From a virus, in the IMG/VR virus record IMGVR_UViG_3300020156_000448, positions 1 through 64,000 of that record: a stretch of DNA of 64,000 nt; one strand, written 5' to 3'. The position numbers and the translations under genes were made by a program. The notes beneath the pieces are model-generated. The model saw only the letters and a list, made by a program, of their open reading frames with translations, ran no database searches and was not told the origin of the DNA. Below are positions 1 through 43,503 of the stretch, one piece after another (position 1 is the stretch's first letter; the number at the start of each line of letters is the position of its first letter).

Positions 1-1566
1 TTATCCGTTGGCGGGAGCAAAAACTTGCTCAAGTGCAGCAATATCAAGCCCCAAGTTCCCCACGAGTGGAGGATTTTCAAAAAAGACCACTTCCCCTGCT
101 AGAGGAGGAACTGCGGGAGCTAGAGGCGCAGCGACTTGCTTTTTAGCCCGACGCCGACGCCTCTTTTTTTCAACAAGTTTCCCTTTTGGCTTGCAAAGCC
201 CACGCTCTACAAGGAAGGCAAACAAATAAGGATACTGGCTTGAAAAATTCTCTACAAACGAGCAGAATTTTGTTGAATCGCCCATATCGCATACTGACGC
301 TACGCCTGTTTCACAGAAATCTACTAGTGCAGAAACGAACTCAATATTCTTGAAAAACGCCTCTTTTTTCAGCGTTCCCTTAAACAGACGTATTTCAATA
401 GTCTGATTGCTATTCAGGTTTACAGCGGTATGATGCCCCTCTTCCCCAATCCATGCAGGGCGATTACGCTTTCCTGTCTTATTGCACTGGAAAGGAACAT
501 CGCATACACGCTTTGTTTTGGTAAAATTGTTGTATCTATTGCTAGCTCTTTGCGCAATTGTTCGTATAAACTTGCGATTGTTAGGGTTAGTAATAAAGTT
601 TACGATTTTGCCGATTTGTAGATTTGTCAAAGATGCTCGCGATACATGGATATGCATACCGCAATTATCCGTAAAGAAGCTGGAAAGCAATCCCTTTTCC
701 TCGAAAGCGTTAAAGAATAGCTCCCACTCTTTAATATGACGCTTATATGTAGCAGGTGCGCTAACAATCTCAAACCCACCACGCCCTTGATCTTTCAAGG
801 AACTATCATGTTTGCACAAGATGAATGGATTGGGAAAACAATCGTAAACACGCTTTGCAGCACGTTCACGAGTAAGGTTGTGATTATAATCAATCTCAAC
901 CTCAAGCTCAATGCCGAAAAATCTTTCGGAACCTTGCTTGCTAGCATTTAGCATTACTGGTGGACGATTGCCACGCGGAATGATTGCATGCCCTGGAATT
1001 CCCTTATTGTAAAACACCTTGCGCCCATCATCATCACGCATGAACGGATCATCCATCATCTGTTCAATTTTTGTGTGATAACTACGAACCATATTTTTCA
1101 TGCAACTACCACAACAACCATCCTGTAGGCGGTTGGCATGGAATGCCCCATGACAAATCGTACATTCTGTATACTTCGCTGCACAACCACCGCAATACCA
1201 ACGGTGACTAAACTTACGTGACTCAGCTTTGTAGTCTAAATTTCCGCAGTCATTACACACAATGAACTTTGTTTCGCGGCAGCCGCCGCAAGCATTAATC
1301 TTCTGCCTACCCTTTACGGTATAGGTGTCGATATAGATTTTTGCCATGCGTGAATCACAGCAAGAACAAACACTAAAATCCTGATCCTGACAATTAGCGC
1401 AGCAGGCAGTCAGCTTAAAGCCAACTGTGGTAAACCGAAGCCCATCAAGAGCAAAGTCCTGAGAGCATACACCGCAATTGAATTTCGTATTTGTAGTTGT
1501 GTGAGGCATACTTGTATTTAATCTTTCTTTCTGGTGCTGCTTATGATTACCTAGAAATAACATCAT
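1..1566 (-). CDS. Phage amidoligase (COOH-NH2 ligase type 2) with N-terminal multi-CxxC zinc-finger region
   Basis: Motifs FFGIELEVE, KHDSSL, GFEIVSAP, CGMHIHVS, TIEIRLFKGTL; eight CxxC pairs in the N-terminal 160 aa. True start may be MPHTT (~1509). Confidence 0.85.
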   Translation of the reverse strand: MMLFLGNHKQHQKERLNTSMPHTTTNTKFNCGVCSQDFALDGLRFTTVGFKLTACCANCQDQDFSVCSCCDSRMAKIYIDTYTVKGRQKINACGGCRETKFIVCNDCGNLDYKAESRKFSHRWYCGGCAAKYTECTICHGAFHANRLQDGCCGSCMKNMVRSYHTKIEQMMDDPFMRDDDGRKVFYNKGIPGHAIIPRGNRPPVMLNASKQGSERFFGIELEVEIDYNHNLTRERAAKRVYDCFPNPFILCKHDSSLKDQGRGGFEIVSAPATYKRHIKEWELFFNAFEEKGLLSSFFTDNCGMHIHVSRASLTNLQIGKIVNFITNPNNRKFIRTIAQRASNRYNNFTKTKRVCDVPFQCNKTGKRNRPAWIGEEGHHTAVNLNSNQTIEIRLFKGTLKKEAFFKNIEFVSALVDFCETGVASVCDMGDSTKFCSFVENFSSQYPYLFAFLVERGLCKPKGKLVEKKRRRRRAKKQVAAPLAPAVPPLAGEVVFFENPPLVGNLGLDIAALEQVFAPANG

Positions 1567-15270: not shown

Positions 15271-15369
15271 TACTGCTCCTGAACTGCGCGCTAGTCAGGG
15301 ATCGGCTATTCTAGACTAACCTCTCACGCTCTATATACATCATTATAATTTAATTTTCCTTTAAAGAAA

Positions 15370-15624
15370 TTATCTATAAATGGGGAAACCTGCATAATTA
15401 CCCATAGAGAAAGAATCACTACTTGTATTGTTTGTCGTAATAGTATAACCTGTCGATGTTGCGGTAATAGTATAGCCTGTAGATGCTGGTACATCTTCAG
15501 TATAACTCCAAGTATTGCGAATGCCGTATTTTTTGTCCATATCTCTAATATAGTCAACGGCGCTCTTTTTCGTAAAGACGACTCTGGCTGTTTGATTCGT
15601 ATTAATTAAGTCTTTAAGATTCAT
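15370..15624 (-). CDS. Leader-tag family protein
   Basis: Starts MNLKDLINTNQTARVVFTKK (GAGG RBS); internal 27-nt duplication STGYTITAT/STGYTITTN. Confidence 0.7.
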   Translation of the reverse strand: MNLKDLINTNQTARVVFTKKSAVDYIRDMDKKYGIRNTWSYTEDVPASTGYTITATSTGYTITTNNTSSDSFSMGNYAGFPIYR

Positions 15625-15907
15625 ATTTTTTGCCTCGTCTATAGTATTTAGAAAACGCTGGCTCAAGCCCACTAGTAGTTGTAGACATTGATTGCATAAG
15701 TACTTGTCTAGATGATGGCGCTGTTGCAGTTAAAGTCTTTCCTGCTCCTCGTCCAATCCTTAGTTCTGCCTGTTTATAAGTAACATCTTTAGCAAACAAA
15801 TCTCCATACATAGCTTTATAGTAATCTCTGAATGAATCTTCGTCACTGCGTTGCTTAACAAAGATAAACTTTACCGAATGATTTTCCACCAAATCTTTAA
15901 TTAGCAT
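15614..15907 (-). CDS. Leader-tag family protein with terminase-like and RNR-like fragments
   Basis: Leader MLIKDLVENHSVKFIFVKQ; then LRIGRGAGKT and TAPSS...TTSGLEPAFSKYYRR. Confidence 0.7.
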   Translation of the reverse strand: MLIKDLVENHSVKFIFVKQRSDEDSFRDYYKAMYGDLFAKDVTYKQAELRIGRGAGKTLTATAPSSRQVLMQSMSTTTSGLEPAFSKYYRRGKKYES

Positions 15908-15969
15908 CTCTGCTTCCTCTGATAGAGCCAACTACTTTATTGGTTCGCTTGCAGACAATATCTCCATTG

Positions 15970-16332
15970 TCATTTAAAAGATGGTTTCCCCAATTTGTCG
16001 TTAAATTCTCTTTGGTATCTCTCGTGCCAAGAAATCGGGGTCGCGGTGTTGCGGCGTCTGGCATTCCTCTCTTGCCTTCTCTTTCTTTTAAGTCTTTCTT
16101 TTCGGCGGTCCTCGACACCCTTAGACAGATTTTGCGGATGCAGAGGCACATGTATATATTGAGATTTTGCTGAATGTTTTTCGATCAAAGTAAATAAATA
16201 ATTCAAAGTCTTTGTGCTTAAATTTGCATAATCGGTATCTATGTCAGGAGGGTAATCAAGCGAATGCCAAATATCTTGTTTCTCAAAAATAATCTTTAAG
16301 TGATTATTGGTTATAGCGCTCTTAAGATTCAT
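15970..16332 (-). CDS. Leader-tag family protein with Arg-rich tail
   Basis: Leader MNLKSAITNNHLKIIFEKQ. Confidence 0.65.
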   Translation of the reverse strand: MNLKSAITNNHLKIIFEKQDIWHSLDYPPDIDTDYANLSTKTLNYLFTLIEKHSAKSQYIHVPLHPQNLSKGVEDRRKERLKRKRRQERNARRRNTATPISWHERYQREFNDKLGKPSFK

Positions 16333-16598
16333 ACGTAATCCATACCACTTGATAATTCGTGTACCTTAATCACTGCCATTATCATAAACCGCCATTTGAT
16401 ATCTTGGTCTTTAGCTGACTCTGCATACATTCTGGCGTGTACCGAATCGCCCTTCATTAAACATTGTATGCATTTATAAGCAGTCTCTACACTCTCTTGA
16501 TCGATATCATCGTCTTCTTCTACTAGAAGATTATAGCCTTGAATTGCTTGTTCGATGACCTTTTGGATCGATCTTTTAATTTCAACGTTCATGAACAC
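16329..16598 (-). CDS. Hypothetical helical protein (no leader motif)
   Basis: 89-aa ORF; ATGA overlap. Confidence 0.55.
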   Translation of the reverse strand: MFMNVEIKRSIQKVIEQAIQGYNLLVEEDDDIDQESVETAYKCIQCLMKGDSVHARMYAESAKDQDIKWRFMIMAVIKVHELSSGMDYV

Positions 16599-16661
16599 CT
16601 GCTACTGTTTTAATCCCGCAGAACCCCTAAAACTAGGTAAAACTTGGGTATACTTTAACTA

Positions 16662-16913
16662 CTATTTAATCAAGGCATTATTCGAAACGCTCTTATTTAT
16701 TATTTCTCTACAACTAGGGCATAGATAATCTGTGCCAATTAGACGAAACTCGTAACCGTCTTTAAGCCGACATCCGAAGCAAGGAATCTTGCTAAACTTA
16801 ATCTGTATACAATGACCTTTCATCACTGTTTCAAGCGGCTGCTTATTTAGGCTCATATGTGAAATGGCAGGTTTTTGAAACTTTTTAGCGATACGTGTTA
16901 ATAGTGATTTCAT
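16662..16913 (-). CDS. Leader-tag family protein with C4 zinc finger
   Basis: Internal PLETVMKGHCIQIKFSK followed by CFGC...CPSC. Confidence 0.6.
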   Translation of the reverse strand: MKSLLTRIAKKFQKPAISHMSLNKQPLETVMKGHCIQIKFSKIPCFGCRLKDGYEFRLIGTDYLCPSCREIINKSVSNNALIK

Positions 16914-16914
16914 C

Positions 16915-17202
16915 TTAATAATCATTCAATGCGTCAGGATAATTTTCTTTAAACCATTCTTGCAACTCTTTGGCATCGGCGTGGTTATCATCTAGCAGAA
17001 ACCTATACATATACCTACATAAGGAAACGCTAAAGCGCACATCTTCTGGCTTAGAAAGAACAGGGACTTTTCGATCAAAGTTCTTTAAAAATTTACCAAC
17101 AGTTTCATAGGTCTTCCAGAAGTGAGCCTCTAAATGCCAGCCCTCTTTAGTAAAGATAACTCTTACTGACCTATGAGCATAATTTTTAATACTATTTGCC
17201 AT
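16915..17202 (-). CDS. Leader-tag family protein
   Basis: Leader MANSIKNYAHRSVRVIFTKE. Confidence 0.65.
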   Translation of the reverse strand: MANSIKNYAHRSVRVIFTKEGWHLEAHFWKTYETVGKFLKNFDRKVPVLSKPEDVRFSVSLCRYMYRFLLDDNHADAKELQEWFKENYPDALNDY

Positions 17203-17440
17203 TAAAGTATATGTTCCTCAGTATTTCTTCATCCTCAGTTTGTTGGATTGAACGCTTAGCATTTATTTGCGCTCTATCTACTATATAAAACCGCCTTGCC
17301 TTAATTTCACTTAGGCTAATTTGAGGATTTGCACCGATTTGAAAAGTCGGAACAAGGAAAGTGCCTTCAGGCTGTTCTTTAGTAAAGACAAAATGTATGG
17401 AATGGCTTTGCAATATCTGCAAAAAGTTGTTGCTTAACAT
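17192..17440 (-). CDS. Leader-tag family protein carrying a major-capsid-protein-like fragment
   Basis: Leader FLQILQSHSIHFVFTKE, then VPTFQIGANPQISLSEIKARRFYIVDRAQINAKRSIQQTEDEEI, which I recall as resembling HK97-fold capsid proteins of large phages. Confidence 0.7.
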   Translation of the reverse strand: MLSNNFLQILQSHSIHFVFTKEQPEGTFLVPTFQIGANPQISLSEIKARRFYIVDRAQINAKRSIQQTEDEEILRNIYFNGK

Positions 17441-17453
17441 GTGTTACATTTTC

Positions 17454-17506
17454 CTAAATAAAAAAGCTTATATACATGTATATCTTGTATATAAGCTTTT
17501 ATTTAG
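17454..17506. terminator. Long AT-rich inverted repeat (terminator/regulatory hairpin)
   Basis: AAAAGCTTATATACA-N9-TGTATATAAGCTTTT, extendable by CTAAAT/ATTTAG. Confidence 0.65.
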
Positions 17507-17513
17507 AAAAATT

Positions 17514-18233
17514 TTAATCTAGTGGAGAAATAGTAACAACTTCTTTTAGTAGGTCGAAATACTCATCTGATCCTAAGGCTGGAAAATCTGCTTCTCTCCC
17601 CTGCGATTGCCATAATTTTAATAACTCATCATCTAATGCAAGCCTTAAAATATCTACCGCCAACGCGGTATAGTGCTGGATTATCTTCGCGTCTTTTTTA
17701 TCAAACTCCATCTCATCTAGCTTGAATGAAAGAACTTCATAAGCGCATCTTACAACCTCTTCGTCTAAATGGAGATTATCAGGATGGCTGCGCGGCGGAC
17801 CTGTGAGCCGAATAAAATGATTCATTTGGTCATGAGCATAATTCAGCCTCTCAATGCTCTCTTTTTCTGAGAGAGGAATAGAGGGACCATCCACCACTAA
17901 ATCCTTCTCAAAGACAGCATATCCATCTTCAAAATTTCTAAAGATAATGGCTTTCGTCTTAGTCAGGCGGTAATCCCGATTTAGGTACATAAATATGCCT
18001 TTCGTAAATAGTGTATTACGAAGACATTCTTTAACCTTTGCGTCTCGTTCTTGTTTTAGTTTTTGAATCTTCGCTAGCGCAAGCTCAGCAGGCTGCTTGG
18101 GCTTTGGAAGTCCAGGTGGCTCTATAAACGTCACACTTACTTTGTGTGACGCGCAAAGGTTGCGAAGTTTGCCAGTTTGCCTGAATCTGCCGAAGAATCT
18201 CGCTTTGGTAGTCATTATGCCTTTCTCTTTCAT
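17514..18233 (-). CDS. Leader-tag family protein (long form)
   Basis: KLRNLCASHKVSVTFIE near the N-terminus. Confidence 0.65.
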   Translation of the reverse strand: MKEKGIMTTKARFFGRFRQTGKLRNLCASHKVSVTFIEPPGLPKPKQPAELALAKIQKLKQERDAKVKECLRNTLFTKGIFMYLNRDYRLTKTKAIIFRNFEDGYAVFEKDLVVDGPSIPLSEKESIERLNYAHDQMNHFIRLTGPPRSHPDNLHLDEEVVRCAYEVLSFKLDEMEFDKKDAKIIQHYTALAVDILRLALDDELLKLWQSQGREADFPALGSDEYFDLLKEVVTISPLD

Positions 18234-18256
18234 TTAGATACAAGGCAGCTTTTATT

Positions 18257-18637
18257 TTATTCTTCTTTTAATGCGGTATAAGCGCTAATCGCATTCGTTA
18301 ACAGCGCAGTAGCCTCTGCTGAAAAATCATAATCTTTCTGACTCGCTATAAAATGATAAGCCAAGTTGTAAAAGTGCGTTTTAAGAACTTTGCTGTGCTC
18401 TGAATATAAAGAAGAAGCATGAATAATACTCTTTAAATTTTCATCGACAGGAAGTTCAATGGCAGCAAAAAACATGAGTGTCCTATGAATTTCACCATAC
18501 ATAGGAAGAATCATATCGTGATGCCCTGAAATACAGATTATATCCATGCATTGAACATAATTTTCATAAAAATCAGGAGTATACTCTTTAGAAAATATAA
18601 ATTTTACATCACCATTATTGCATAAATCTTTAAGCAC
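18257..18637 (-). CDS. Leader-tag family protein
   Basis: Leader MLKDLCNNGDVKFIFSKE. Confidence 0.65.
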   Translation of the reverse strand: MLKDLCNNGDVKFIFSKEYTPDFYENYVQCMDIICISGHHDMILPMYGEIHRTLMFFAAIELPVDENLKSIIHASSLYSEHSKVLKTHFYNLAYHFIASQKDYDFSAEATALLTNAISAYTALKEE

Positions 18638-18972
18638 TATATATCCATACCAAATGAATCGTTAATAGCATCGTCCAACTCGTCATCTTCCGCAAAGATA
18701 ATACTAAGCTCTTCTTCCGTAAGATCGGAATTTCTAAGCTCATAGATAGTTGATGCAGGAATAAGGGAATCTGGCATGTCTTTCTCACTGCGCTTCATAT
18801 CCCACAGTTCCTTTGCTACTTCTGCTGCTTTCCTATCTTCTTCTGCTGGCATCATGTCGTGGGTATCTGGACTCCACACTGTATCTGTCGTACCATCAGG
18901 AAATGTAATCAAATATTCGTGACCTGTCAAGCCACTTGTTCTACCAGTTCTATTAACTCTTAGCGCCATCAC
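18637..18972 (-). CDS. Acidic hypothetical protein
   Basis: Asp/Glu-rich 111-aa ORF. Confidence 0.6.
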   Translation of the reverse strand: MMALRVNRTGRTSGLTGHEYLITFPDGTTDTVWSPDTHDMMPAEEDRKAAEVAKELWDMKRSEKDMPDSLIPASTIYELRNSDLTEEELSIIFAEDDELDDAINDSFGMDI

Positions 18973-41937: not shown

Positions 41938-43503
41938 TTATCGTAAATTATCTATAATTTTTTCTGCACAAATTTGCATCTTTTGGTAAATTTCTTCTGT
42001 GCGTTGAGCAATGGTGTCAGAAGCCTCCACATAAGAAGGAAAATGCTTTTGAAAAGCATCAGAGTATACATCTTTATCTTGATCCTCATACATGTAAATT
42101 CCTTGCCCAATAAAATGATTAACAATTTGAACTTGGTCTCTAAGTCTCTCAATCATACTTTTAGTTTCTGGGTCATTCATATCTGCTCCATTTTCAAGTA
42201 AATGTCGCATAATGTATGTAGTTTCATCAATTTCTACGCTAGCCTCGAAGGTTGGGACTAAATCGATGTTGTTTTCTAGTTTGTAGGCTGCGTGCCCATC
42301 AAACGAACCATAAAATTCATAGTTCGCAATTTGATTAGCTAATGCGTGAGCCTCAATTTCATCTACAAAAGATTCATTTTTAATCGATTCAATACAACTA
42401 ACTACTCCCGCAATAAACTTAGAATTTACGCTCAGATGTGTCACTAGCTTTTCAATCTTGTCGTAATTAAAATTACCGTCCTCATATAGGTTGGTACTTA
42501 TATAACTTACTAGTATATTATCCTGATCAACTAGGTCATCTATAGAGAAGCCGCCCACATCGTTTTGCATAACAATATCTGCATCTGTTGTTTTAGCTAA
42601 AAGTTCTAGCCTTGATTTATAATGTTCTAGATTAACTTTATTTTGTTCCCATAATTGATTAATCACTTCTGCATCAAGAGGCATATTGGGATGCAAGCCT
42701 CTTGGGTTATTTTTTCTATAGTTAGCCCCCACCTCTTTGACCAAAGAGTTGTTTAAATCTACTCTAAATTCTAACTCCCCATCGTCTGATCTTTGAGTAT
42801 ATATATTGGAAGCTGCTAATTCGGCATCTTCTTCAATGGTTTCTTTCGTTGAAGAATAGTCTATAGCGCCCAATACGGTCTTTCCAAACCAACTTCCGAA
42901 TAAATTATGATCATGTTTAGCATCTATTGGCTCAGTGTTTGTGTTTAAAGAAATATCTATTAAGTTCTGATCATTATCATCTAAGAACGCTGTCTCTCCC
43001 TCTTCGAGTTCAGCAACATATTCACTCTTTTTGGCAACTCCGTCAATGATGACATCATCAAATAACTCATAAATTCCAAAGGCTCGCAACAACAATACTA
43101 CTGGCTGAGCGTCATCGGAAACACCCTGCTTATCGCTTGCAGAGACAATATATAGATTTTTACCCTTACTTTTTAAGGAAAGCAATTGCTCTTTAAAGCC
43201 TTTTTCTAATTTGACCTTGCTACCTTTTGAATCTTCAATTAAAGTGTTGCTAATGAGCTTATATGGCGCTTCTGTGGCAGCAGCATATGATAGACCACCT
43301 TCAGGATTAGTGACTTCCCAAATTGTGTCATCGGCGTCGAAGATGATTGTATCATATTCGTTCAAATCATAACCTGCTACCTCTGTAGGTTTCATGTTCA
43401 TCTGAGTTAGCAATTCACTAACATCATCATTTCTATTACTTGGCATTGTATTTCTCCGATCCGCTATAAGCCTTTTCTTTAAGCTCCAATATGGCTTCTC
43501 CAT
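41938..43503 (-). CDS. HAD phosphatase (MDP-1-like) fused to an unknown C-terminal region
   Basis: IIFDADDTIW (DxDxT), VSAS, K, FLDDN. Confidence 0.75.
   Translation of the reverse strand: MEKPYWSLKKRLIADRRNTMPSNRNDDVSELLTQMNMKPTEVAGYDLNEYDTIIFDADDTIWEVTNPEGGLSYAAATEAPYKLISNTLIEDSKGSKVKLEKGFKEQLLSLKSKGKNLYIVSASDKQGVSDDAQPVVLLLRAFGIYELFDDVIIDGVAKKSEYVAELEEGETAFLDDNDQNLIDISLNTNTEPIDAKHDHNLFGSWFGKTVLGAIDYSSTKETIEEDAELAASNIYTQRSDDGELEFRVDLNNSLVKEVGANYRKNNPRGLHPNMPLDAEVINQLWEQNKVNLEHYKSRLELLAKTTDADIVMQNDVGGFSIDDLVDQDNILVSYISTNLYEDGNFNYDKIEKLVTHLSVNSKFIAGVVSCIESIKNESFVDEIEAHALANQIANYEFYGSFDGHAAYKLENNIDLVPTFEASVEIDETTYIMRHLLENGADMNDPETKSMIERLRDQVQIVNHFIGQGIYMYEDQDKDVYSDAFQKHFPSYVEASDTIAQRTEEIYQKMQICAEKIIDNLR

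What the first reader, a model, noticed from the sequence alone, without database searches (positions are those of the whole stretch)
17192..17440. 82-aa mini-gene carrying an apparent major capsid protein fragment
Seen: after the leader comes EGTFLVPTFQIGANPQISLSEIKARRFYIVDRAQINAKRSIQQTEDEEI. From memory this matches the P.FEIA.NP...L..IK.RRF...DRAQ..AK..IQ..ED segment (P-domain strand plus spine helix) of HK97-fold capsid proteins in large phages. The ORF is intact and far from the structural module. Inference: a capsid-epitope decoy or an assembly poison.
Basis: partly seen in the sequence, partly recalled or inferred. Interest (0 to 1): 0.8.

Follow-up and report, generated by a model that had tools for sequence, protein, structure and literature searches.

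The report
Leader-tagged capsid spine-helix mini-gene
A large soil phage carries an intact 82-codon gene that joins a short leader, shared with its neighbour genes, to a copy of the most conserved 51 residues of a phage-G-type capsid protein; it probably acts as a molecular mimic, but its function is untested.

Summary
ORF 17192-17440 (minus strand, 82 aa) carries, at aa 27-77, the last P-domain strands and the spine helix of phage-G-type HK97 capsid proteins. Matches: PHROG 2522 E 6e-8; NCBIfam NF042927 E 1e-6; own profile of 68 capsid proteins E 5e-23. PDB 6WKK anchors the family.

No full capsid gene and no other significant capsid piece lies in the 125-kb record. Rfam finds no intron nearby. 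It is therefore not an exon and not a frameshifted gene.

The N-terminus carries a motif shared by six neighbouring small ORFs. Two neighbours weakly resemble the next capsid segment, and one resembles the phage's own ribonucleotide reductase.

Thirty other short proteins in public data (of 127 hits) carry the same module with similar boundaries and unrelated flanks. Some form sub-families with conserved flanks.

The donor is unresolved: the phage's own unseen capsid gene or an L007-type phage. Function is untested. I favour a mimic that interferes with capsid assembly (0.40) over recombination debris (0.35).

This scan's earlier AI notes describe tagged capsid-fragment mini-genes (mostly T4-type capsid) in other giant phages. 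I did not test those notes.

My literature searches found no description of such genes.

The parts
17192..17440 (-). 82-aa mini-gene (ATG start). Its stop overlaps the ATG of the next ORF (16915-17202) by 11 nt.
   Evidence: The identical protein is called in JGI, Logan and ENA assemblies.
17210..17362 (-). Capsid-derived module, aa 27-77. It corresponds to positions 91-141 of phage-G-type major capsid proteins: the last P-domain strands plus the spine helix.
17267..17314 (-). Core block LSEIKARRFYIVDRAQ (aa 43-58). It is identical to the capsid consensus at 16 of 16 positions, while 17 of 35 flanking module positions differ.
17363..17440 (-). N-terminal leader, aa 1-26. It contains the array motif (HSIHFVFTKE) shared with six neighbouring ORFs.
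   Evidence: With a model built from the six neighbours, this is the best non-training hit in the six-frame translation of the 125-kb record, but only at E 0.13.
17452..17455 (-). SD-like AGGA, 11 nt before the ATG. It lies inside the lower stem of the upstream hairpin.
17448..17512 (.). Long A+T-rich hairpin between the 239-aa gene and the mini-gene (-25.9 kcal/mol, z -7.1). It could be a terminator or a 5' stem-loop.
15970..16332 (-). Neighbour ORF (120 aa) with the leader. Its aa 30-58 weakly resemble capsid positions 151-179.
   Evidence: E 1.6e-4 for one sequence; 0 of 500 shuffles reach the score. E 0.025 and 0.76 in the larger sets.
16329..16598 (-). Neighbour ORF (89 aa, no leader) with a faint resemblance to capsid positions 137-184.
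   Evidence: E 3.4e-3 for one sequence; 16 of 500 shuffles reach the score.
15614..15931 (-). Neighbour ORF (105 aa) with the leader. Its aa 67-103 resemble aa 484-517 of the phage's own ribonucleotide reductase large subunit.
   Evidence: E 8.7e-4 for one sequence; 0 of 500 shuffles. The TerL Walker-A resemblance is not significant (E 0.15).
15370..18637 (-). Array of small ORFs. Seven carry the leader motif (L..L..N..VKFIFTKE-like).
   Evidence: The short DNA repeat TCTTTAGTAAAGA(T/C)AA occurs at 17144, 17376 and 18585.

Best explanation
The ORF is a real chimeric gene. An N-terminal leader of the local small-gene array is fused in frame to a 51-residue copy of the most conserved element of phage-G-type HK97 capsid proteins (P-domain strands plus spine helix).

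I think it is translated into a small protein with a short N-terminal helix, an extended stretch and one long amphipathic helix. I think it works as a molecular mimic. It would offer the conserved, core-facing side of the spine-helix module to whatever normally packs against it: the rest of a folding capsid subunit, including its N-arm. That would disturb the folding or capsomer formation of capsid proteins of this family.

The likeliest target is a co-infecting phage with a G-type capsid. Control of the phage's own assembly timing is also possible.

Shown: the homology, the intact ORF, the stand-alone position, the leader motif, and the recurrence of the module in other small proteins. Inferred: translation, binding, target and effect.
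For: - Homology of aa 27-77 to capsid positions 91-141. The family is anchored by PDB 6WKK.
- It stands alone. The six-frame search of the whole 125-kb record finds no other significant capsid piece. Rfam finds no intron in 12-22 kb.
- The gene layout looks normal: ATG start, SD-like AGGA at 11 nt (45 of the 62 SD-like motifs in this phage lie at 6-11 nt), and a stop overlapping the next start.
- The AF2 model has pLDDT 82.8, with a confident 39-residue helix at 43-81.
- The core block is unchanged at 16 of 16 positions while 17 of 35 flanking positions differ from the capsid consensus. This is the most extreme such pattern among the 74 rows that have at least 10 flank changes.
- The module has a terminal branch of 0.77-0.97 against a median of 0.042, so it has left the capsid regime.
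- Of 127 hits at E<=1e-3 among 1.84 billion representatives, 31 (the query included) are proteins of 200 aa or less with one module bounded at profile 84-95 to 137-154 and unrelated flanks.
- Sub-families share conserved flanks, for example P0016, P0018, P0027 and P0107.
- Some module-bearing short proteins lie on long contigs: 92 kb, 94 kb, 78 kb and 56 kb. One carries the source label 'complete'.
- Across these small proteins the same capsid-invariant positions are relaxed (R106, K124, A128, K131), while R113, R114, F115, D119, E133, D134, I137 and F138 are kept.
Against: - It is a singleton. No orthologue exists in either protein library, so no conservation or dN/dS can be measured for this gene.
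- Codon-usage score is 0.074 in frame against 0.062 in another frame, and 0.28 +/- 0.06 for the long ORFs.
- The SD-like motif sits inside a very stable hairpin, which may limit translation.
- Real capsid lineages with a nearly intact core and diverged flanks exist (P0057: 2 of 16 and 18 of 35). The pattern could therefore be inherited from an unsampled donor rather than selected in the mini-gene.
- The neighbours look like decayed pieces of core genes, which also fits a recombination junkyard.
- 0 of 5 large genomes with a G-type capsid (four of them at least 98% complete) hold such a mini-gene.
- Only 3 contigs among the 160 capsid loci examined hold extra capsid pieces.
- Some short database hits, with bounds at profile 56 and about 121, are probably exons of split capsid genes, so 31 is an upper bound.
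Confidence: 0.4

Rival explanations
1. Functionless by-product. Illegitimate recombination in a hyperplastic array of small genes dropped a piece of a capsid gene (the phage's own or a co-infecting phage's) behind a leader-type start. The frame is still open because the event is recent or because the piece is short.
For: - It is a singleton.
- Codon score is low and the SD lies in a hairpin.
- The terminal branch is long, as under relaxed selection.
- Neighbours carry weak, decayed-looking pieces of capsid and RNR genes.
- Similar stray capsid pieces sit in small ORFs near the capsid gene in L008, L024 and L054. The L008 piece is 88% identical over 50 nt to its own capsid gene.
- By TerL calibration, the phage's own capsid protein could be about as far from the sampled ones as the module is.
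Against: - The 16-residue core is untouched while 17 of 35 flank positions changed.
- The fusion to the array leader is in frame, with ATG, an SD-like motif and a coupled stop-start.
- The same module boundaries recur in 30 other small proteins, and some sub-families keep conserved flanks.
Confidence: 0.35
2. Immune decoy or antagonist. An early mini-protein presents the most conserved capsid epitope to a host sensor that is triggered by capsid protein, and occupies it without activating it.
For: - Capsid proteins are direct triggers of bacterial immunity. I saw only the title and start of the abstract of 10.1101/2022.05.30.493996 in the listing.
- The module is the most conserved stretch of this capsid family: 32 of 51 columns are invariant in 68 proteins.
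- The gene sits among small, early-type ORFs, not among head genes.
Against: - A fragment that keeps the epitope would be expected to trigger such a sensor rather than silence it (inference).
- No defence or anti-defence family matches: PADLOC gave 0 families for 10 of 10 array proteins.
- The host is unknown.
Confidence: 0.12
3. The function is at the DNA level. A diverged spare copy of a conserved capsid-gene segment would serve as a repair or conversion template after cleavage by a rival's homing endonuclease or by CRISPR.
For: - Capsid genes of this family are often interrupted, which shows that mobile elements target them. The split sites are at profile 32/33, 55/56, 219/220 and 268/269, in 8 of the first 80 loci.
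- Neighbours hold pieces of other classical homing targets such as RNR.
Against: - Nucleotide identity to any sampled capsid gene is at most 77% over 99 nt, which is poor for homologous repair unless the phage's own gene is closer.
- None of the split sites seen lies inside 91-141.
- It would not explain the in-frame leader.
Confidence: 0.05
4. It is one exon or one piece of a split capsid gene, with the parts joined by splicing or assembled from separate polypeptides.
For: - Split capsid genes exist in relatives.
- Some short database hits look like exons (bounds at 56 and about 121).
- This genome has other split genes: the DNA polymerase lies in two ORFs.
Against: - No other significant capsid piece is found in 125 kb in any frame.
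- Rfam finds no group I or II intron in 12-22 kb.
- The ORF has its own start and leader.
- The weak pieces nearby cover only about 137-184 and are far too diverged for a working capsid.
Confidence: 0.03

Closest known systems
Bacillus phage G gp27 major capsid protein (PDB 6WKK; NCBIfam NF042927 capsid_Caudo_2; PHROG 2522)
   Same: aa 30-73 are 52% identical to gp27 aa 90-133. The identity is 63-71% to 68 environmental relatives. The secondary-structure elements are the same.
   Different: Only 51 of about 280-290 positions are present. There is no N-arm, E-loop hairpin, A-domain or C-terminal P-domain strands. The score is 27.8 bits against a family cut-off of 80. It cannot form an HK97 fold on its own.
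SaPIbov5 Ccm, a satellite-encoded homologue of the helper phage capsid protein that redirects capsid assembly (PMC8569155; I saw only the title and start of the abstract, in search listings)
   Same: A capsid-protein-derived gene carried outside the normal head module, which acts on capsid assembly.
   Different: Ccm is described as a capsid-protein homologue that takes part in capsids. Here there is only a strand-plus-helix fragment with a foreign leader, in a large phage rather than a satellite.
Tab, a prophage protein that blocks virion assembly of invading phages (PMC10884400; I saw only the title and start of the abstract, in a search listing)
   Same: The concept of a phage-encoded protein that interferes with a rival's virion assembly.
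   Different: From what I saw, Tab is not described as a copy of the target's own structural protein. There is no sequence relation (not tested).
Designed interfacial peptides that mimic capsid structural elements and inhibit HIV-1 capsid assembly (PMC3169566; I saw only the title and start of the abstract, in a search listing)
   Same: The principle of a short copy of a capsid element acting as a competitive assembly inhibitor.
   Different: Those peptides are man-made and target an unrelated capsid fold. Here the fragment is natural and gene-encoded.
Tagged capsid-fragment mini-genes noted by this scan in other giant phages (AI notes e1-5985039, e1-6010779, e1-5339861, e1-6090216, e1-5725544, e1-6007789, e1-5650024, e1-5377248)
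   Same: The same design: a short shared tag joined to a conserved piece of a capsid or other core protein, encoded as a small gene outside the head module.
   Different: Most of those notes concern T4-type (gp23-like) capsid proteins, and several describe a tag at the C-terminus. Here the capsid is phage-G type and the tag is an N-terminal leader. I did not test those notes.

Membership tests
HK97-fold major capsid protein, phage-G type (NCBIfam NF042927 / PHROG 2522 / PDB 6WKK) | Whole-protein score at or above the curated cut-off (80 bits for NF042927) | tested here: not met
   The mini-gene scores 27.8 bits. The L007 capsid protein scores 192.1 bits.
HK97-fold major capsid protein, phage-G type (NCBIfam NF042927 / PHROG 2522 / PDB 6WKK) | Full architecture: N-arm helices, E-loop, P-domain sheet plus spine helix, and A-domain (about 280-290 aa) | tested here: not met
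   Only profile positions 91-141 of 290 are present. The AF2 model shows one long helix and no sheet, compared with the L007 model.
HK97-fold major capsid protein, phage-G type (NCBIfam NF042927 / PHROG 2522 / PDB 6WKK) | Significant sequence homology of the segment that is present | tested here: met
   E 6e-8, 3e-7, 4.8e-23 and 1.1e-6.
Local leader-bearing small-gene array (window 15370-18637) | N-terminal motif L..L..N..V(K/R)(F/V)(I/V)F(T/S)K(E/Q) | tested here: inconclusive
   With a model built from the six other leaders, the mini-gene is the best non-training hit among 5781 six-frame pieces, at the N-terminus, but only at E 0.13 and 10.3 bits. Pairwise phmmer to ORF 15614-15931 gives E 0.06-0.07.
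Exon of an intron-split capsid gene | Other capsid exons nearby and an intron RNA between them | tested here: not met
   No other significant capsid piece in 125 kb. No intron family at E<=1 in 12-22 kb.
Informal class: small proteins carrying one capsid spine-helix module | 200 aa or less; a single capsid-like stretch bounded at profile 84-95 and 137-154; unrelated flanks | tested here: met
   The query spans 91-141. Thirty other representatives fit the pattern. Their genomic context is known only for P0006 = L054.
Known anti-phage defence or candidate defence proteins (PADLOC-DB) | A match to any PADLOC model | tested here: not met
   0 families for the mini-gene and for the 9 neighbours at E<=0.1.

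The most novel reading that the evidence does not exclude
The mini-gene is one cartridge of a leader-tagged 'interfering peptide' array. On this reading the phage keeps a panel of small genes, each joining a constant N-terminal leader to a copy of the most conserved core of an essential phage protein. The pieces seen here are the capsid spine helix, a capsid A-domain helix and the ribonucleotide-reductase active-site loop. The leader would deliver or stabilise the pieces, and the pieces would act as dominant-negative mimics against rival phages or against host sensors. With the tagged capsid-fragment genes that this scan noted in T4-type giant phages, it would be a general and undescribed weapon class of large phages, evolved independently in different capsid lineages.
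Probability: 0.12. Interest if true: 0.9.

Novelty: new variant of a known kind. Interest (0 to 1): 0.6.

Why it matters
If the module is a selected mimic, large phages make short, gene-encoded copies of the invariant core of capsid proteins. That would be a natural counterpart of designed capsid-assembly inhibitor peptides.

It would point to a conserved surface (R113, R114, F115, D119, E133, D134, I137, F138) whose partner could be found by pull-down. It would also add capsid folding or assembly to the fronts of phage-phage or phage-host conflict.

The recurrence of the same module in about 30 unrelated small proteins, and of similar tagged fragments in other giant phages, makes the question directly testable with phage G or a relative.

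If it is debris, it still documents how core-gene fragments are captured into leader-bearing ORFs in hyperplastic regions.

Tried and rejected
- Exon or frameshifted capsid gene: rejected for this locus.
- Assembly artefact: unlikely. The identical protein is on record from JGI, Logan and ENA assemblies, and Logan contigs of one soil DNA run hold 0.98 of the sampled words of 15300-18700. All probably derive from one sample.
- Leader derived from the capsid E-loop strand: BLAST to the Tunturi_5 capsid extends into the leader, but a profile-profile comparison of the six other leaders with the capsid alignment found nothing.
- Co-folding of the L007 capsid protein with the mini-protein: no verdict.
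- No RNA holder listed for the stretch.
- ESM Atlas: no hit of 0.9 or more.
- Pfam: 0 families for the mini-gene at E<=10, and only sub-threshold hits for 9 neighbours.
- PADLOC: nothing.
- Search for the phage's own capsid gene. It is not in the record. A 3.9-kb metagenome contig that extends the left end holds no capsid gene. The right-end pattern was not found in viral or genome collections. No close TerL relatives were found in IMG/VR.
- Context of other mini-proteins: not retrievable (searches found nothing; one search returned only full capsid genes and L054 again).
- Bacterial genomes: only 4 small MAG contigs hold the core pattern.
- Helical periodicity of the substitutions: p 0.05-0.11, not significant.
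- Synonymous sites are saturated even among close capsid genes, so no dating or dN/dS is possible.
- Tree placement. The query is nested with L007, L008, L009, L010 and L024 (support 97/96). The AU test does not reject a placement outside the first-set capsids (p 0.35). A second AU test did not finish.
- I had recalled that the 80alpha scaffold contacts the spine helix. [quoted passage not shown]
- Supplements of papers were not consulted.

Full report
**What is there.** Its stop overlaps the ATG of the next ORF (16915-17202) by 11 nt. An SD-like AGGA lies 11 nt upstream; in this phage, 45 of 62 SD-like motifs lie 6-11 nt from the start. Directly upstream is a long A+T-rich hairpin (17448-17512; -25.9 kcal/mol; z -7.1; 0 of 200 shuffles fold as well). 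Its lower stem includes the AGGA.

**The capsid match is real.** PHROG 2522 'major head protein' matches aa 27-75 at E 6.1e-8. NCBIfam NF042927 'HK97-fold major capsid protein' matches aa 27-73 at E 1.1e-6, with 27.8 bits against a cut-off of 80. tblastn against 50,697 phage records finds 4 records: Bacillus phage G gp27 twice (51%, E 3e-7), an uncultured 485-kb phage, and Tunturi_5.

A pattern scan of IMG/VR gave 95 relatives. Of the 80 kept, 68 are full-length ORFs of 280-305 aa with the match starting near residue 91. A profile built from those 68 scores the mini-gene at E 4.8e-23 over positions 91-141. The family is anchored by the solved phage G capsid protein: L007 against 6WKK gives E 5.7e-97.

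An AlphaFold2 model of the L007 protein (pLDDT 82, pTM 0.77) has strands at 91-93, 97-101 and 104-106 and a helix at 114-144. The fragment is therefore the end of the P-domain sheet plus the spine helix. The mini-protein alone is modelled (pLDDT 82.8) as helix 4-14, an extended stretch 15-42, and a confident helix 43-81.

**It stands alone.** The record is 125,053 nt, labelled provirus, and estimated 76% complete. Neither phage G gp27, the Tunturi_5 capsid, PHROG 2522 nor my profile finds any full capsid gene in it.

In a six-frame search of all 5781 stop-to-stop pieces, the mini-gene is the only significant hit. The next best hit is 15973-16365 at E 0.76. Rfam finds no intron in 12-22 kb, only sub-threshold hairpin matches. 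The ORF is therefore not an exon and not a frameshifted capsid gene.

The same protein is on record from three assembly sources.

The phage belongs to the broad group with G-type capsids. Its TerL matches the TerL of 5 of 5 such phages at 27-31% identity, E 1e-30 to 1e-38. Glycosyltransferases at the right end of the record resemble genes found 2-3 kb downstream of the capsid gene in 23 and 17 of the first 80 loci.

**Leader and array.** Seven ORFs between 15370 and 18637 share an N-terminal motif. A model built from the six others finds all six at E 1e-7 to 4e-17. The mini-gene is the best non-member hit, but only at E 0.13. Three copies share a 16-nt DNA repeat. Profile comparison gives no relation between the leader and the capsid protein.

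Two neighbours resemble the next capsid segment:
- 15970-16332: profile 151-179, E 1.6e-4 for one sequence, 0 of 500 shuffles.
- 16329-16598: profile 137-184, E 3.4e-3, 16 of 500 shuffles.

ORF 15614-15931 resembles aa 484-517 of the phage's own ribonucleotide reductase (E 8.7e-4, 0 of 500 shuffles). Its Walker-A-like stretch is not significant (E 0.15). Pfam and PHROGs give nothing above threshold for these neighbours.

**How the module has evolved.** Against the 68 capsid proteins the module is 63-71% identical in protein and at most 64% in DNA, or 75-77% over the central 99 nt. Synonymous sites are saturated (pS 0.86-1.1), as they are among the capsid genes themselves (pS 0.63-0.97). No dating is therefore possible.

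The module differs at 7 of 32 columns that are invariant in the 68 proteins. Yet the 16-residue core LSEIKARRFYIVDRAQ is unchanged, while 17 of 35 flank positions differ. No other row with 15 or more flank changes keeps the core intact; the nearest are P0020 (1 of 16) and the capsid protein P0057 (2 of 16).

In trees of the 51 columns the module sits with L007, L008, L009, L010 and L024 (SH-aLRT 84; 97/96 in a capsid-only tree). Its terminal branch is 0.77-0.97 against a median of 0.042. An AU test does not reject a position outside the first-set capsids (p 0.35).

TerL calibration is as follows. TerL of a 548-kb phage is 30-42% identical to that of the 83-kb L008 phage, while their capsid proteins are about two-thirds identical. 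The phage's own unseen capsid protein could therefore be about as distant as the module is. The donor is thus unresolved: the phage's own gene or an L007-type phage.

**The module recurs.** phmmer against 1.84 billion representatives gave 127 hits at E<=1e-3, and most are short. Scored with the full capsid profile, 31 of the 127 (the query included) are proteins of 200 aa or less with a single capsid-like stretch bounded at 84-95 and 137-154 and with unrelated flanks. Others are partial capsid proteins, permuted or deleted forms (for example 89-150 joined to 236-286), or probable exons bounded at 56 and about 121.

Flanks define sub-families. One has a Tat-like RR N-terminus. Another has a shared C-terminal IIGFKPSKEN...IYG.K motif in P0016, P0018, P0027 and P0107, which are 34-42% identical overall.

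A profile search of the 5.8-billion-cluster set found 160 proteins of 41-259 aa at E<=1e-5, among them module-bearing small proteins. Some of the short ones lie on long contigs: P0024 on 92 kb, P0121 on 94 kb, P0182 on 78 kb and P0006 on 56 kb. One carries the source label 'complete'.

Most are singletons on short contigs. Their context is known for only one, L054. There, two ORFs with a shared RR leader carry capsid positions 73-146 and 10-58. They sit next to a C39-like peptidase and a divergent capsid-like ORF that has the same leader.

Such genes are not universal. 0 of 5 large G-type genomes have one. Among the 160 capsid loci, only L008, L024 and L054 (seen twice) hold extra pieces. In the module tree the small proteins are scattered (at least 10 changes) and have long branches. 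That fits repeated capture followed by evolution under a different regime.

Across them R113, R114, F115, D119, E133, D134, I137 and F138 stay conserved (86% or more). R106, K124, A128 and K131, which are invariant or nearly so in the capsids, are kept in only 22-32%.

**Reading.** I favour a translated mimic of the capsid's most conserved element that competes for the contacts of the spine-helix module and disturbs capsid folding or assembly (0.40). Next comes functionless recombination debris (0.35), then an immune decoy (0.12), a DNA-level template (0.05) and a split-gene piece (0.03).

Nothing I ran tests function. The co-folding job gave no verdict, no RNA run is listed, and PADLOC is blank.

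**Literature.** Four full-text searches returned no paper describing stand-alone capsid spine-helix mini-genes. The nearest concepts are:
- Ccm of SaPIbov5 (PMC8569155);
- Tab (PMC10884400);
- capsid-triggered CapRel immunity (10.1101/2022.05.30.493996);
- designed interfacial peptides (PMC3169566).

For all four I saw only the title and start of the abstract in the listings. Of PMC5644958 I read passages.

This scan's own earlier AI notes describe tagged capsid-fragment mini-genes in at least eight other giant-phage genomes, mostly with T4-type capsids. I did not test them and they do not count as evidence. They do show that the design was seen before on other DNA.

Noticed in passing
L015/L016 (3562-5597), L050, L055, L058, L070, L065 (4653-6150): Phage-G-type capsid genes in IMG/VR contigs are interrupted by 0.05-1.4 kb inserts at profile positions 32/33, 55/56, 219/220 and 268/269. 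These are probably introns or homing elements. Short database proteins bounded at 56 and about 121 hint at a further site.
   Followed up: partly
L054 4860-6890 (= L097 7836-9881): Three ORFs share a Tat-like MNRRSF(L/I)K leader. Two carry permuted pieces of a standard capsid protein (73-146, then 10-58) and the third is a divergent 295-aa capsid-like protein. A weakly C39-like peptidase (E 3-5e-4) lies between them.
   Followed up: partly
L008 8911-9105 and G007:C1:34447-34629: An 83-kb phage with an intact capsid gene also has a 64-aa ORF carrying capsid positions 237-273, which is 88% identical over 50 nt to its own capsid gene. It has a second piece (aa 41-101) inside a 216-aa frame.
   Followed up: partly
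window 15614-15931: A leader-bearing 105-aa ORF whose aa 67-103 resemble the TAP...SSGIEP.F...Y.RR.K region of the phage's own ribonucleotide reductase (E 8.7e-4; 0 of 500 shuffles). The TerL-like Walker A claim is not significant.
   Followed up: partly
window 17448-17512: A very stable A+T-rich hairpin (z -7.1) between two genes. It sequesters the SD-like motif of the mini-gene. A promoter-like site at 17539-17511 lies just upstream.
   Followed up: partly
G000 112238-123026 (beyond the window; L004 8238-19026): A cluster of four glycosyltransferase-like genes. Two of them resemble genes that lie 2-3 kb downstream of the capsid gene in 23 and 17 of 80 related loci, which hints at glycosylation linked to the capsid module.
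   Followed up: no
G007:C1:63211-66510: The TerL of the L008 phage lies in a 1112-aa open frame, with the matching parts in separated pieces. This suggests an in-frame insert such as an intein.
   Followed up: no
L087 713-2452: The 3.9-kb metagenome contig that overlaps the left end of the window encodes a 579-aa protein. By eye it looks Ro60/TROVE-like (recalled resemblance, no search run). If so, the 'provirus' boundary is probably not a host junction.
   Followed up: no
window 1-1566 and 41938-43503: Two minus-strand ORFs of exactly 521 aa each. I did not compare them.
   Followed up: no
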